A DNA stretch of 62,518 bases, from positions 1-62,518 of the forward strand of contig JAACWB010000006.1 in NCBI GenBank assembly GCA_009992215.1. Reading direction: 5' to 3'. Below are positions 55,499 through 58,297 of the stretch, piece by piece (position 1 is the first letter of the stretch; every line of letters starts with the position of its first letter). The position numbers and the translations under genes are program-made. A model generated the notes under the pieces. It was not told where the DNA came from. It made no database searches and worked only from the letters and a program-made list of their open reading frames with translations. This DNA is from an archaeon. GTDB lineage: Archaea > Nanobdellota > Nanobdellia > Pacearchaeales > GW2011-AR1.

Positions 55499-56092
55499 AT
55501 GGAAATTGATGAAAAACATCTCTGGAAAAAAAGAATAGCTTTGGATATTGACGGAACGCTTTGGGATTTTTATGGCCCATTTTTTGAATTTTATAATAAT
55601 AAGTATGGAACAAATTATGATTTAACAGATTTCAATTGCGAGTTAGCTAAGTTACTTAATTTAACTCAAGAACAATTAAACGAGGAATTTAGGGAATTTG
55701 AGGGAACAGCATATTGTGAAGATTTGCCCCTTTATCCGAATGTTTCTGAAATCTTGTTAAAACTTAGTCAAAAATATTTTTTTGTTTTGATTACTGCAAA
55801 GGATTCAACACATAGGGAAGTTATTCGTGAACGATTAAAAAGAAAACTTCCGAAATTTGATTTTCCTATTTATTTTTCTGGAGATTATGTTGGTGCAGCT
55901 GGAGGAAAGGATGAAATTTGTCGTGAAATTGGTTGCGAGGCAATTATTGAAGATAATTTAGGTAATGCACTTAGTTGTGCTAACTCTGGAATAAAATCAA
56001 TTTTAGTTAATCGTTACTGGAATCAAGGAGGAGAACACGAAAATTTGGTTCGGGTTATGAGTTGGGATGAAGTTTTAGATTTATTTCCTTAA
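55499..56092 (+). CDS. HAD-superfamily 5'(3')-deoxyribonucleotidase-like (NT5C type)
   Basis: IALDIDGTLWDFYGPFFEFYN (DxDGT motif I) and later IIEDN. Confidence 0.65.
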   Translation: MEIDEKHLWKKRIALDIDGTLWDFYGPFFEFYNNKYGTNYDLTDFNCELAKLLNLTQEQLNEEFREFEGTAYCEDLPLYPNVSEILLKLSQKYFFVLITAKDSTHREVIRERLKRKLPKFDFPIYFSGDYVGAAGGKDEICREIGCEAIIEDNLGNALSCANSGIKSILVNRYWNQGGEHENLVRVMSWDEVLDLFP

Positions 56093-56197
56093 TTTTGTTT
56101 CTTTTTGTTTATTTTGAAATGTTCTCTCGACGAACACGTACCAAAGTACGCGTTGTCAATTGAAATTTCAAACTAATTCAAAAATAATTCAAAATAG
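56093..56197 (+). terminator. post-stop hairpin module, subtype 2, copy e
   Basis: Starts at the HAD stop. TTTGAAAT (56113..56120) pairs with ATTTCAAA (56165..56172). Inner hairpin ACGTAC CAAA GTACGC. Confidence 0.6.
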
Positions 56198-56217
56198 TTT
56201 GTAATAATTTTTTTAAT

Positions 56218-56284
56218 GAAATTAGTTTTATGACAAACTTTGTCAAGAAATAAGTATGAATTGTACAAGTCTTTGTTTATTATG
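56218..56284 (+). promoter_or_regulatory. conserved promoter/leader, copy 2 (before kinase)
   Basis: gaaattagttttatgacaaactttgtcaagaaataagtatgaattgtacaagtctttgtttattATG. Contains the palindrome TGACAAACTTTGTCA at 56231..56245. Confidence 0.6.
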
Positions 56285-56770
56285 GAGATAAACAAAATTC
56301 ATATTTTGGGACCTCCAGGAAGCGGGAAAACACATCTTGCAAAAGAATTATCCAATAAATTAAAATTGGATTATTTTGAATTAGATAACATTTCTTGGGA
56401 AATAAAATACAAAAAGAAGCGAGATATTTTTGAAAAACAAATTCTTTTGGAAAAAATAATTTTAAATAATAAATGGATTGTTGAAGGGGTTCAAACCTCT
56501 TTTATTCATAGTTCAATAAACAAAGCAGACAAAATAATTTTTTTAAATTTTAATTTTTTTATCTTATTTTATAGAATTTTTAGAAGGTATTTATTTAATA
56601 TTAAAAAAGAAAATTTTTTTAGAACAATTAATCTTGTTTGGATAGCGTTTAATTATAAAATAAAGAAGGGAAAATTTCAAATTTATAAAAATATTCTCAA
56701 TACATATGATAACATTGTTTATATCAAAACAAAAAAAGATTTGAAACTATTTTTATCTAGGTTGAATTAG
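56282..56770 (+). CDS. P-loop nucleoside/nucleotide kinase-like (adenylate kinase / topology-modulation family)
   Basis: MEINKIHILGPPGSGKTHLAKELS and NNKWIVEGV. Confidence 0.65.
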   Translation: MEINKIHILGPPGSGKTHLAKELSNKLKLDYFELDNISWEIKYKKKRDIFEKQILLEKIILNNKWIVEGVQTSFIHSSINKADKIIFLNFNFFILFYRIFRRYLFNIKKENFFRTINLVWIAFNYKIKKGKFQIYKNILNTYDNIVYIKTKKDLKLFLSRLN

Positions 56771-56833
56771 TTTTATGACAAAATTTGTCTAGAAATAAGT
56801 ATGAATTGTACAAGTCTTTGTTATATTATAATG
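56764..56833 (+). promoter_or_regulatory. conserved promoter/leader, copy 3 (before radical SAM)
   Basis: gaattagttttatgacaaaatttgtctagaaataagtatgaattgtacaagtctttgttatattataATG. Confidence 0.6.
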
Positions 56834-57697
56834 GCATGTATAGAAAAAATTTATAGTGTTTCGGCTTTGGTTGGAAATGGTAAGTGCAATGCGAATTGTC
56901 CGGATTGTGCTGGGAAATACTTAAGACCTGACGCTAAAGAAAATGAAATATATTATAAAAACTTAGAATCTGCAATAAAATTGTCTGCTCGTTATGGTGG
57001 GTGGTCTTTGTCTTTTACAAGTTCTGGAGAACCTACTGAAGACCCTTCTGCTTTGACTAGGGCATTTGAAGTATATGATAAATGTGCAAAAGAAGGAGCA
57101 TATTTTCCGAATGTTAATTTGTTTACAAATGGAATTAATTTTGGTGACAAAGATTTTTGTAAAACATATTTACCAAAGTGGAGAAAATTGGGCTTAACAA
57201 ATGTTGCAATTTCTGTTCATGGAGTTGATGAATCTGCGCAAGAAGAAATTTATGGCATTAGTTCTTATCCTAAGTTAGAAAAACTTGTAGAGAATATTGA
57301 GGAACAAGGTGTCGGAGTTAGAGCAACTTTACTTCTTAGAAAATGCTATGTTGATAATTCAAAGAAGTATGAGGAAGCAGTTCATAATTTGATTGATAAG
57401 GGAATTACAAATATTACTTCTTGGCCGATTGGAAAACCTGATGGAAGCAGAATTGAGGGAACGCCTTCTCGAGTAGGACTTTTTGAAATAAAAAATTGGT
57501 TAAGGAAGAATGCTAAGATGTGTCATGGTCATGTTTGGGGCGGGGGAGTTTATGATTACAAAGGTAATATTCTTAGAATTACAGATTATGTTACAAAGCA
57601 CGACCCGAAGAAAGATTTTGTTAGACAACTTGTTGTTTTTCAAGATGGAACTGTTGCTTACTCTTGGATTAAGGAAGGGGCTTTGTGTATGAAATAA
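56831..57697 (+). CDS. radical SAM enzyme (no SPASM tail)
   Basis: GKCNANCPDCAGKY (CxxxCxxC) and TSSGEPTEDP (GGEP-like). Start MACIEKIY follows the conserved leader. Confidence 0.8.
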   Translation: MACIEKIYSVSALVGNGKCNANCPDCAGKYLRPDAKENEIYYKNLESAIKLSARYGGWSLSFTSSGEPTEDPSALTRAFEVYDKCAKEGAYFPNVNLFTNGINFGDKDFCKTYLPKWRKLGLTNVAISVHGVDESAQEEIYGISSYPKLEKLVENIEEQGVGVRATLLLRKCYVDNSKKYEEAVHNLIDKGITNITSWPIGKPDGSRIEGTPSRVGLFEIKNWLRKNAKMCHGHVWGGGVYDYKGNILRITDYVTKHDPKKDFVRQLVVFQDGTVAYSWIKEGALCMK

Positions 57698-58297
57698 TTA
57701 AATCTCAAAAATAATTGGAACCCTTGATGCGTTGATAACTTTTGAGCCTTCAATTTCTTCTATCAAGCCTCCTCCTTCGTGGATGTGTCCGCAAATGACG
57801 AAATCTGGCTTGAATTTTTTTATTGCCTTGGTTACTCCGTATGAGCCTGGAAAACCCATCAGTTCTAACACACTTCCTGTTGGAGGAGAATGTGAAATCA
57901 TTATTTTTTTCTTTAAGTGTTTTATTTTTGAGTGTGCTTCTTTTAATTCATTAAATAAATTTTCTGAGTCTTCCTTGAAACCCCAATCTGTTGTTCCAGA
58001 ACCAAAGAAACCAATTTCATTTCTTTCAATTCCGGTTTTATGTAGATTTTTTAGAGTTGGATAAACTTCTGATAAATGATTAATTGTTTCTATATCTTCG
58101 TGATTTCCATGAACAATTAAAACTTCTCCTTTGTCAGTTAAGGGTTTTATTATTCCTTTTGTTTCTTCACCAAACCACGTTACATCTCCAGCATGGAGGA
58201 TTAAATCTACTTTTTCCTTTTTTGCTATCTCTCCAATTTTCTTTACGAGGTTTGAATCTCCATGTGTATCTGATATTGCAAGTATTTTCATATTCAT
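57698..58297 (-). CDS. metallophosphoesterase (YfcE/MJ0936-like)
   Basis: ISDTHGD, HAGDV, HGNHE, SHSPP and CGHIHEG. Confidence 0.85.
   Translation of the reverse strand: MNMKILAISDTHGDSNLVKKIGEIAKKEKVDLILHAGDVTWFGEETKGIIKPLTDKGEVLIVHGNHEDIETINHLSEVYPTLKNLHKTGIERNEIGFFGSGTTDWGFKEDSENLFNELKEAHSKIKHLKKKIMISHSPPTGSVLELMGFPGSYGVTKAIKKFKPDFVICGHIHEGGGLIEEIEGSKVINASRVPIIFEI

What the first reader, a model, noticed from the sequence alone, without database searches (positions are those of the whole stretch)
55499..58297. Compact nucleotide-chemistry module: NT5C-type nucleotidase, P-loop kinase, radical SAM and metallophosphoesterase
A HAD deoxyribonucleotidase-like gene (DIDGTLWDF), a small adenylate-kinase-like P-loop protein (GPPGSGKTH) and a 288-aa radical SAM enzyme (CNANCPDC, SSGEPT, no SPASM cysteines) sit head-to-tail. 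A convergent calcineurin-like phosphoesterase abuts the radical SAM stop with zero spacing (57697/57698). Established knowledge: radical SAM enzymes paired with nucleotide kinases occur in prokaryotic viperin-type antiviral loci, and in nucleoside or base hypermodification pathways. This radical SAM enzyme lacks the viperin N-x-H..CNYKCxFCF context, so it would be a different family. Inference: the four enzymes make or destroy a modified nucleotide, for defence, signalling or DNA/RNA modification.
Basis: partly seen in the sequence, partly recalled or inferred. Interest (0 to 1): 0.66.

Follow-up and report, generated by a model that had tools for sequence, protein, structure and literature searches.

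The report
Conserved orphan radical SAM nucleotide operon
The four genes are real, but only the radical SAM enzyme (and often the phosphoesterase) is conserved: it is the very highly conserved core of an unstudied nucleotide-salvage-type operon of tiny symbiotic archaea, with relatives in CPR bacteria and inside phage NAD+ operons.

Summary
All four ORFs exist as described, on a DPANN archaeal contig. As a four-gene unit they are not conserved. In about 110 related loci the NT5C nucleotidase never recurs, and the FlaR-like P-loop kinase recurs about once.

The conserved core is the 288-aa radical SAM enzyme (rSAM-A). It belongs to an uncurated family nearest MoaA and viperin. It is about 76% identical across DPANN lineages and 60-75% identical to CPR-bacterial copies, which is more conserved than topoisomerase in the same genomes.

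Recurrent archaeal partners:
- a divergent 281-aa putative regulator
- a shared promoter/operator palindrome
- an adjacent paralog (rSAM-B)
- an AAA_28 (NadR-kinase-like) kinase and a CYTH phosphohydrolase, sometimes fused
- an orphan-fold protein (c5)
- the convergent metallophosphoesterase

In the window, NT5C and the FlaR-like kinase fill the kinase/phosphohydrolase slot. The kinase and rSAM genes carry 97%-identical copies of the operator element. In CPR bacteria the constant neighbour is NrdR. A sister subfamily sits inside NAD+ salvage operons of phages and small-genome bacteria.

Best reading: a regulated housekeeping or salvage radical enzyme acting on a nucleoside phosphate, possibly a pyridine nucleotide, and not a defence system. 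The reaction is unknown.

The parts
51334..52179 (-). c1: conserved 281-aa protein with a probable N-terminal winged-helix domain; putative regulator, transcribed divergently from the operon
   Evidence: Found next to rSAM-A in 50 of 51 archaeal loci. The only family hits are weak: HTH_11 at E 0.0066 and weak PLD-like PADLOC hits. No solved relative. The regulator role is an inference.
52307..52364 (+). Copy 1 (66% identity) of the 58-nt promoter/operator-like element, at the head of the plus-strand gene block
   Evidence: the repeat finder family D1. The same TGACAA-n-TTTGT...TACAA(C/G)TCT element lies in the c1/rSAM-A intergenic region, or at the operon head, in relatives.
52370..55438 (+). 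Lineage-specific block of about ten small, tightly packed ORFs (several with ATGA overlaps), including the diverged c5 homolog
   Evidence: ORF list. By tblastn, none of these ORFs has a homolog in the other 197 loci. The closest relatives L001, L195 and L196 lack the block.
54152..54757 (+). orf201: diverged member of the conserved c5 family (orphan fold)
   Evidence: hhalign against the c5 profile gives E 5.8e-5 over 108 columns; the control ORF gives E 0.61. The c5 AF2 model has pLDDT 94 and no PDB or BFVD match.
55499..56092 (+). HAD-superfamily NT5C-type 5'-nucleotidase; lineage-specific occupant of the phosphohydrolase slot
   Evidence: PF06941 28.3 bits against 24.8. phrog_420 E 8e-26. 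Absent from all other loci.
56220..56277 (+). Copy 2 of the 58-nt element (palindrome GACAAACTTTGTC), directly upstream of the kinase start
56282..56770 (+). FlaR-like (adenylate-kinase-fold) P-loop kinase; lineage-specific occupant of the kinase slot
   Evidence: NCBIfam PRK08118 at E 1.7e-20, sub-threshold. AAA_18 29.3 bits. A homolog lies in the operon of L155. Similarity to the AAA_28 profile is limited to the P-loop region.
56765..56822 (+). Copy 3 of the 58-nt element (palindrome GACAAAATTTGTC), 97% identical to copy 2, directly upstream of the radical SAM start
56831..57697 (+). rSAM-A: 288-aa radical SAM enzyme of an uncurated MoaA/viperin-like family; the conserved core of the locus
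57698..58297 (-). Calcineurin-like metallophosphoesterase (YfcE-like), convergent; a recurrent partner
   Evidence: PF00149 75.4 bits. Present in 16 of 51 archaeal loci in the consolidated tally, and detected by tblastn in 21 loci. MPE genes also flank subfamily C in phages.

Best explanation
Window 51.3-58.3 kb is one lineage's version of a conserved DPANN-archaeal operon. Its invariant core is an uncharacterised, exceptionally conserved radical SAM enzyme (rSAM-A). The operon is transcribed divergently from a conserved 281-aa putative winged-helix regulator, from a promoter/operator element (TGACAA-n-TTTGTC ... TACAAGTCT). Between regulator and enzyme lies a variable slot that different lineages fill with interchangeable small nucleotide kinases and phosphohydrolases. 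The usual occupants are an AAA_28 NadR-kinase-like kinase plus CYTH, often with c5, and sometimes HD, TMK-like or dCTP-deaminase genes. Here the slot holds a FlaR-like kinase, an NT5C nucleotidase and a diverged c5. A paralog (rSAM-B) usually follows rSAM-A but is absent here, and a metallophosphoesterase often closes the locus. Proposed mechanism (inferred, not shown): rSAM-A binds one [4Fe-4S] cluster through C19/C23/C26 and cleaves SAM. The resulting 5'-deoxyadenosyl radical abstracts a hydrogen from a nucleoside phosphate held partly by the invariant Arg164 and Arg265 and the family-specific C-terminal beta domain. The kinase and phosphatases set the phosphorylation state of the salvaged substrate and of the product. 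The role is regulated housekeeping or salvage in organisms that cannot make nucleotides or cofactors de novo. The substrate is most likely pyridine-nucleotide (NAD)-related, by analogy with the sister subfamily C. It is not an antiviral system.
For: Shown directly. The family shows extreme conservation: the top 120 homologs are 72-85% identical and nearly all exactly 288 aa. It collapses to about 4 clusters at 50% identity. In the same genome pairs, rSAM-A is about 76% identical, c1 57%, MPE 50% and topoisomerase 49%. The only curated match is generic PF04055; the best sub-threshold and structural relatives are MoaA and viperin. Arg164 aligns with MoaA Lys163. Partner counts in 51 archaeal loci: c1 50, two or more rSAMs 33, AAA_28 20, CYTH 17, MPE 16, c5 12. 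AAA_28 and CYTH are fused in L011, L124 and L134. The only solved relative of the AAA_28 protein is the kinase half of a NadR-like enzyme, the class characterised as NARP3 Bas30_86 (PMC13464706). The operator element is conserved in relatives and present three times in the window; the copies before the kinase and before rSAM are 97% identical. The window lacks AAA_28, CYTH and rSAM-B anywhere in its 62 kb, so this is like-for-like replacement. The sister subfamily C lies inside NAD operons with PncA, NAPRTase, NadD, NadE, NMNAT and NrtR in 24 of 80 phage loci and in all 6 contigs sampled by look-up (1 phage-like, 5 bacterial-looking), usually with its stop codon overlapping the start of a NadE-like gene. 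NADAR lies next to phage-borne rSAM-A. There is no PADLOC hit for the rSAM.
Against: No biochemical data exist and no paper mentions this family. None of the NAD genes that accompany subfamily C occurs near subfamily A in about 110 loci. A and C are only about 30% identical and may differ in substrate. In all 14 bacterial subfamily-A loci the constant neighbour is NrdR, and some archaeal loci carry dCTP deaminase, TMK-like, HD or NT5C genes; these point to deoxynucleotides rather than NAD. The AAA_28 to NadR-kinase link is weak (E 5.5e-4). The regulator role of c1 is unproven. The C-terminal 60 residues of the AF2 model have low confidence.
Confidence: 0.5

Rival explanations
1. rSAM-A is a deoxynucleotide-pool enzyme. 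It would be a radical SAM step in dNTP supply, conversion or sanitation, under NrdR control in CPR bacteria and c1 control in archaea. The kinases and nucleotidases would handle deoxynucleosides and deoxynucleotides.
For: NrdR lies immediately upstream in 14 of 14 bacterial loci from at least 5 lineages, while the other neighbours differ. dCTP deaminase, a TMK-like kinase and a third rSAM occur in L004, L008 and L125. HD occurs in L003 and L197. The window's NT5C belongs to the deoxyribonucleotidase family. ThyA, DHFR and glutaredoxin lie near phage copies. NrdR-box-like cores (CAATATATTG, CTATATATTG) occur in 3 of 8 nrdR/rSAM intergenic regions.
Against: The NrdR-box test is not significant (3 of 8 against 1.05 expected, P about 0.07; the full 16-mer consensus does not exceed shuffles). 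No RNR gene lies next to the family in any locus. RNR is described as a conserved CPR gene (PMC10221324), so simple replacement is unlikely. The most frequent archaeal partner is NadR-kinase-like, and the sister subfamily is tied to NAD rather than dNTP genes.
Confidence: 0.2
2. One reading: a viperin-like defence or signalling module that makes a modified (chain-terminating or signalling) nucleotide. The kinase would supply substrate and the phosphatases would degrade or detoxify it.
For: The fold and profile are close to viperin. Kinase neighbours resemble those of prokaryotic viperins. The MPE matches the PADLOC candidate PDC-S10 at E 5e-23. The gene slot is variable and island-like.
Against: The viperin_w_prok model does not hit rSAM-A at E <= 0.01, and hits subfamilies B and C only at 22-40 bits against a cut-off of 180. 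There is no PADLOC hit for the rSAM. It keeps a fixed syntenic position next to topoisomerase and c1, and is more conserved than topoisomerase. In CPR bacteria it sits beside DnaE, GatAB and TrmD. The family is abundant in phages themselves.
Confidence: 0.07
3. rSAM-A is an RNA (tRNA or rRNA) modification enzyme, and its nucleotide-enzyme neighbours are incidental.
For: The very high conservation would fit an invariant macromolecular substrate. A SpoU methylase lies directly downstream of phage-borne rSAM-A (L166, L174). A CCA-adding enzyme (L188) and RNA ligases occur near phage copies.
Against: There is no match to any curated RNA-modifying radical SAM family, and no RNA-binding domain (THUMP, PUA, TRAM). 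The recurrent cellular partners are small-molecule nucleotide enzymes, and the sister subfamily's stop codon overlaps the start of a NadE-like gene.
Confidence: 0.1
4. The juxtaposition is fortuitous. The 52.2-56.8 kb block, including NT5C and the kinase, would be mobile or viral cargo that landed in a permissive intergenic site and has no functional tie to the radical SAM.
For: By tblastn, no gene of the block recurs in the other 197 loci. The block has many tiny orphan ORFs with internal repeats. The best NT5C match is a phage family (phrog_420). The closest relatives lack the block.
Against: The kinase carries a 97%-identical copy of the rSAM promoter/operator element. The block contains a diverged copy of the conserved operon gene c5. 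All its genes are co-oriented with the operon. The slot holds a kinase plus a phosphohydrolase in many other lineages, and here the usual pair is missing.
Confidence: 0.13

Closest known systems
MoaA (GTP 3',8-cyclase, molybdenum cofactor biosynthesis)
   Same: It is the best profile hit (E 3e-9) and the best structural hit (2fb2, E 4e-9, TMq 0.58). It shares the N-terminal CX3CX2C motif, the GGEP-type and TNG motifs, and a basic residue on beta-5 (family Arg164 aligned with MoaA Lys163). It uses an NTP substrate.
   Different: TIGR02666 scores 18 bits against a cut-off of 284. There is no C-terminal second [4Fe-4S] cysteine motif and no MoaC or Moco genes nearby. The C-terminal domain differs.
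Viperin and prokaryotic viperins (ddhNTP synthases)
   Same: Similar size (about 290 aa), a single cluster, an NTP-type radical SAM fold (7n7i E 1.2e-8; profile E 1e-7), and nucleotide-kinase neighbours.
   Different: The viperin_w_prok model does not hit rSAM-A, and hits subfamilies B and C far below its cut-off. There is no defence-island context, the gene is extremely conserved and syntenic, and it is also carried by phages.
Phage NAD+ reconstitution pathways (NARP1/2/3) and jumbo-phage NAD synthesis gene sets
   Same: Sister subfamily C sits among PncA, NAPRTase/NAMPT, NadD/NMNAT, NadE, Prs-like and NrtR genes. The archaeal AAA_28 partner resembles the kinase half of the NARP3 NadR-like enzyme class.
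   Different: No described NARP pathway contains a radical SAM enzyme: the term does not occur in those papers. The window's own locus has no NAD gene.
QueE with QueC (radical SAM enzyme plus PP-loop ATPase in 7-deazaguanine synthesis)
   Same: Subfamily C is paired with a PP-loop (NadE-like) enzyme whose start overlaps its stop codon. C members give weak hits to QueE-like phage families.
   Different: No FolE, QueD, QueC or DpdA genes are nearby. QueE models score far below their cut-offs. The archaeal subfamily-A loci have no PP-loop partner.

Membership tests
Radical SAM superfamily | CX3CX2C cluster motif, a SAM-binding GGE-like motif, and the PF04055 model above its gathering score | tested here: met
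   C19, C23 and C26 are invariant, the SGEPT motif is present, and PF04055 scores 31.8 bits against 29.5.
Viperin / pVip | Match to the curated viperin model (NF038283, cut-off 180 bits) | tested here: not met
   No hit for rSAM-A at E <= 0.01. Subfamilies B and C score 22-40 bits.
Viperin / pVip | Defence-system context (a known defence model hit, patchy island distribution) | tested here: not met
   No PADLOC hit for the rSAM. Fixed synteny with topoisomerase and c1, and higher conservation than topoisomerase.
Viperin / pVip | Makes a 3'-deoxy-3',4'-didehydro-NTP | not testable with these tools
   Needs an enzyme assay with LC-MS.
MoaA | Curated model TIGR02666 or TIGR02668 above its cut-off | tested here: not met
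   18.3 and 16.0 bits against cut-offs of 284 and 325.
MoaA | C-terminal second [4Fe-4S] cluster (three conserved cysteines) | tested here: not met
   Outside the CX3CX2C motif no cysteine is conserved across the family. Subfamily A has only C231 and C286 in its C-terminal part.
SPASM/twitch peptide maturases | C-terminal SPASM or twitch cysteine-rich domain | tested here: not met
   No such motif in the alignments. PqqE, SkfB and anSME hits cover only the core barrel.
NrdG (class III RNR activase) | NrdG model above its cut-off, and adjacency to NrdD | tested here: not met
   No NrdG hit for rSAM-A. C members score 23-33 bits against a cut-off of 131. No NrdD was found among the neighbours annotated or seed-searched in about 110 subfamily-A loci.
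NT5C-type HAD nucleotidase (gene 55499-56092) | PF06941 above its gathering score, and the DxDxT motif | tested here: met
   28.3 bits against 24.8, with DIDGT present. Substrate not tested.
Calcineurin-like metallophosphoesterase (gene 57698-58297) | PF00149 above its cut-off, and the DxH / GD / GNHE / GHxH motifs | tested here: met
   75.4 bits against 21.5. DTHGD, AGD, GNHE and GHIH are visible in the translation.
FlaR-like / adenylate-kinase-fold P-loop kinase (gene 56282-56770) | Curated FlaR-type model (PRK08118) above its cut-off | tested here: inconclusive
   73.8 bits against 215 (E 1.7e-20), full-length alignment, Walker A present. Only generic P-loop hits in the PDB.
NAD+ salvage / reconstitution operon | Co-location with PncA, PncB/NAMPT, NadD/NMNAT, NadE or NrtR | tested here: not met
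   Met for sister subfamily C. Not met for the window or for any subfamily-A locus. Only an RNK-like AAA_28 kinase and NADAR point that way.

The most novel reading that the evidence does not exclude
This radical SAM family (subfamilies A, B and C) catalyses a previously unrecognised radical step in pyridine-nucleotide (NAD) biosynthesis or salvage. That step would be specific to organisms and viruses that live on host metabolites: DPANN archaea, CPR bacteria, small-genome Bacilli and Elusimicrobia, and large phages. The window's gene would be the archaeal version, fed and drained by interchangeable kinases and phosphatases.
Probability: 0.3. Interest if true: 0.85.

Novelty: new variant of a known kind. 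Interest (0 to 1): 0.66.

Why it matters
DPANN archaea and CPR bacteria make up a large share of microbial diversity, cannot make nucleotides or many cofactors themselves, and are full of unannotated genes. An enzyme held at about 76% identity across their lineages, shared between the two domains and with phages, and placed under dedicated regulators (c1, NrdR, NrtR) is probably central to how they process scavenged nucleotides or NAD. Identifying its reaction could add a new radical SAM chemistry. It could also fill a gap in metabolic reconstructions of these organisms. For the phage subfamily, it could add an unrecognised component to the NAD+ contest between phages and bacterial immunity. 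The family is small, soluble and single-cluster, so it is directly testable in vitro.

Tried and rejected
- **Family libraries.** Pfam, NCBIfam, PHROGs and PADLOC give no specific family for the radical SAM, c1 or c5.
- **NrdR boxes.** The full 16-mer consensus does not exceed shuffles. The 10-mer core is found in 3 of 8 loci against 1.05 expected, P about 0.07. Left as inconclusive.
- **RNR replacement or NrdG-like activase.** No NrdD or RNR gene is adjacent in any locus, and RNR is reported as conserved in CPR bacteria.
- **Phage NMNAT fusion.** Its C-terminus is not AAA_28.
- **By-eye calls not confirmed.** My readings of a Macro domain (L152), HD (L121) and a TMK-like kinase (L110) next to phage-borne rSAM-A were not confirmed by Pfam and are not used.
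- **c5.** The AF2 model is confident but has no PDB or BFVD match.
- **c1.** Neither a single-sequence nor a profile search of the PDB gave a significant hit.
- **NT5C and MPE.** PDB sequence searches were uninformative.
- **Sequenced phage isolates.** Subfamily C gives only three weak hits, all in metagenomic huge-phage records.
- **Literature.** Eight searches found no description of the family.
- **RiPP reading.** I considered whether the small ORFs with repeated YDLN motifs are precursor peptides for the radical SAM. I dropped this because the ORFs are lineage-specific while the enzyme is near-invariant and lacks SPASM or RRE domains.

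
Full report
**Observation**

The window is AT-rich (about 29% GC). It encodes archaeal markers such as transcription factor S, and the closest homologs of its genes come from Woesearchaeota, Pacearchaeota and Nanoarchaeia MAGs. It is therefore a DPANN archaeal contig.

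The four ORFs exist at the stated coordinates.
- The NT5C-type HAD nucleotidase passes Pfam's threshold.
- The P-loop protein is adenylate-kinase-like. Its best NCBIfam match is the FlaR-type 'DNA topology modulation protein', sub-threshold.
- The 288-aa radical SAM passes only the generic PF04055 model.
- The convergent gene is a clear calcineurin-like metallophosphoesterase.
- The stop codons of the radical SAM and the phosphoesterase abut exactly.

**What the radical SAM is**

It matches no curated family. In NCBIfam the best hits are TrsS, PqqE and MoaA, at 16-28 bits against cut-offs of 284-490. The viperin model does not hit it, and PADLOC has no hit.

A family profile finds MoaA first (E 3e-9) and viperin next (1e-7) among solved structures. 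An AF2 model (pLDDT 75, with the C-terminal 60 residues weak) finds the same two by Foldseek. Both are NTP-using enzymes. There is no second cysteine cluster.

Conservation is unusual. The top 120 database homologs are 72-85% identical and nearly all exactly 288 aa. In an exhaustive search at 50% clustering, the orthologous group collapses to about four clusters. In the same genome pairs it is about 76% identical, while the neighbouring regulator is 57%, the phosphoesterase 50% and DNA topoisomerase 49%.

Copies at 60-75% identity sit in genuinely bacterial CPR contigs, next to DnaE, GatAB and TrmD. Copies at 59-68% identity occur on phage-like contigs.

The wider family has three subfamilies:
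- **A**: this gene.
- **B**: a paralog of about 270 aa with a truncated C-terminus.
- **C**: about 95 clusters at 50% identity and at least 926 members.

A and C share a distinctive C-terminal domain.

**Is the four-gene module conserved?**

No. I examined 26 genome loci, 4 viral and 80 metagenome loci of subfamily A, and three further contigs.
- NT5C never recurs.
- A FlaR-like kinase appears in one other operon (L155).
- The closest relatives (L001, L195, L196; 83% identity) have the regulator and the radical SAM only about 130 bp apart.
- By tblastn, none of the genes in window 52217-56770 has a homolog in any of the other 197 loci.

In 51 archaeal loci, the recurring partners are:

| Partner | Loci (of 51) |
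|---|---|
| Divergent 281-aa protein c1 | 50 |
| A second radical SAM directly downstream, its start usually overlapping the rSAM-A stop | 33 |
| AAA_28 P-loop kinase | 20 |
| CYTH domain protein | 17 |
| The metallophosphoesterase | 16 |
| Unannotated 170-aa protein c5 | 12 |

Occasional extras are a TMK-like kinase with dCTP deaminase and a third radical SAM, or an HD hydrolase.

Further details on the partners:
- AAA_28 and CYTH are fused into one protein in three loci.
- The only solved relative of the AAA_28 protein is the ribosylnicotinamide-kinase half of a NadR-like enzyme. This is the enzyme class recently characterised as phage NARP3 (PMC13464706).
- The window's orf201 (54152-54757) is a diverged c5 (hhalign E 5.8e-5, control 0.61).
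- c5 gives a confident AF2 model (pLDDT 94) with no structural match in the PDB or BFVD.

**A shared control element**

A 58-nt element occurs three times in the window. It contains the palindrome GACAAA-n-TTTGTC followed by TACAAGTCT.
- One diverged copy (66%) lies next to c1, at the head of the plus-strand block.
- Two copies that are 97% identical lie directly in front of the kinase start (ATG 56282) and the radical SAM start (ATG 56831).

The same element lies 60-75 nt upstream of rSAM-A wherever c1 and rSAM-A are adjacent. It lies at the operon head, next to c1, when kinase, CYTH or c5 genes intervene. I read it as the promoter/operator of the operon. That c1 binds it is an inference, because c1 has only a weak HTH hit and no solved relative.

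The duplicated copy means that in this lineage the kinase is wired to the same control as the radical SAM. The window has no AAA_28, CYTH or rSAM-B anywhere in its 62 kb. So the FlaR-like kinase and NT5C look like a like-for-like replacement of the usual kinase and phosphohydrolase pair.

**Context in bacteria and phages**

In all 14 bacterial subfamily-A loci, from at least five lineages, the gene immediately upstream is NrdR, while the other neighbours differ. A search for NrdR boxes was inconclusive.

Subfamily C is abundant on uncultivated viral contigs (98 hits) and almost absent from sequenced phage isolates. In 24 of 80 such loci it lies inside NAD+ salvage operons, in several rearranged orders:
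- PncA-rSAM-PncB-NadD-NadE
- MPE-rSAM-NadE-NMNAT
- PncB-NadE-rSAM-PncA

In small-genome Bacilli-, Clostridia- and Elusimicrobia-type contigs there is a tight core: PLP-decarboxylase-like, rSAM-C, NadE-like, and an NMNAT-like fusion. It is flanked by NAPRTase, a glutamine-dependent NadE, a Prs-like protein and the NAD regulator NrtR.

Phage-borne subfamily-A copies are flanked by NADAR and SpoU-methylase genes.

None of the papers on phage NAD+ reconstitution or jumbo-phage NAD synthesis mentions a radical SAM enzyme. I found no description of the family at all.

**Interpretation**

- **Shown:** an uncharacterised, extremely conserved MoaA/viperin-like radical SAM family. It has a conserved operon architecture with a dedicated upstream element. 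Its accessory slot is variable but functionally consistent (kinases and phosphohydrolases). The phosphoesterase is a recurrent partner.
- **Inferred:** the substrate is a nucleoside phosphate, and the accessory enzymes adjust the phosphorylation of substrate and product. The role is regulated housekeeping or salvage rather than defence. The substrate may be NAD-related, based on the RNK-like kinase, NADAR and the NAD-operon embedding of subfamily C.
- **Competing signal:** NrdR, dCTP deaminase, TMK-like, HD and NT5C genes point to deoxynucleotides instead, and I cannot reconcile the two signals. I therefore give the general explanation 0.5 and the specific NAD reading about 0.3.
- **Less likely:** the defence, RNA-modification and chance-juxtaposition readings, for the reasons listed under rivals.

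**Verdict**

The four genes are not a conserved module. The radical SAM is the core of a real, conserved and unstudied nucleotide-type operon, with relatives in CPR bacteria and in NAD+ operons of phages and small-genome bacteria. It is a distinct new family within a known enzyme kind, and its reaction is directly testable.

Noticed in passing
window 53908-53937 and 54126-54155: A perfect 30-nt direct repeat (GAAAATAAATTAGAGGAAGGCGTGAAATGA). It gives two consecutive small ORFs the identical C-terminal tail ...NKLEEGVK, each ending in an ATGA overlap with the next start codon. It looks like a duplicated translational-coupling junction.
   Followed up: partly
window 54693-55266: Two small ORFs carry four copies of a (S/A)(P)YDLN..GG(F/L) peptide motif, encoded by 27-30-nt repeats (repeat families D10, D11, D14). 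Neighbouring small ORFs (53480-53722, 53934-54155) are cysteine-rich. By tblastn, none of these small ORFs has a homolog in 197 related loci.
   Followed up: partly
L011:4842-5993, L124:3842-4993, L134:2192-3238: An AAA_28 (NadR-kinase-like) P-loop kinase and a CYTH triphosphate-tunnel domain are fused into one protein of 348-383 aa, directly upstream of rSAM-A. This fusion links two proteins that are separate in other loci.
   Followed up: partly
L193:3336-13531; L198-L201 around 5700-10700: Small-genome Bacilli-, Clostridia- and Elusimicrobia-type contigs carry a tight operon: PLP-decarboxylase-like, rSAM-C, NadE-like, NMNAT-like fusion. It is flanked by NAPRTase, a glutamine-dependent NadE, a Prs-like protein and NrtR. 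L193 has two further radical SAM genes. It looks like an undescribed NAD-related pathway.
   Followed up: partly
L009:6880-7386 and 31 database relatives; window 54152-54757: The c5 family (about 170 aa) was detected only in subfamily-A operons and in unnamed metagenomic proteins. The AF2 model is very confident (pLDDT 94.3) but has no structural match in the PDB or BFVD. It is an orphan fold tied to the radical SAM operon.
   Followed up: yes
L107:5127-5903, L174:3564-4364, L166:6109-6705, L174:5855-6439: On phage-like contigs, rSAM-A (59-68% identical to the archaeal gene) is preceded by a NADAR-domain protein and followed, with overlapping codons, by a SpoU-family methyltransferase.
   Followed up: partly
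L014, L021, L024, L025, L111-L117, L126, L148, L159 (about 150 bp upstream of the rSAM start): In CPR bacteria nrdR is always the immediate upstream neighbour of rSAM-A. Some of the shared intergenic regions contain NrdR-box-like cores (CAATATATTG, CTATATATTG), but the enrichment is not significant (P about 0.07).
   Followed up: yes
window 58451-58717, 59018-59323, 59376-59452: An 88-aa winged-helix protein is syntenic with the locus in six relatives. Transcription factor S follows; its mechanical ORF extends about 250 nt upstream of the likely start. A tRNA-Lys(CTT) gene follows that.
   Followed up: no
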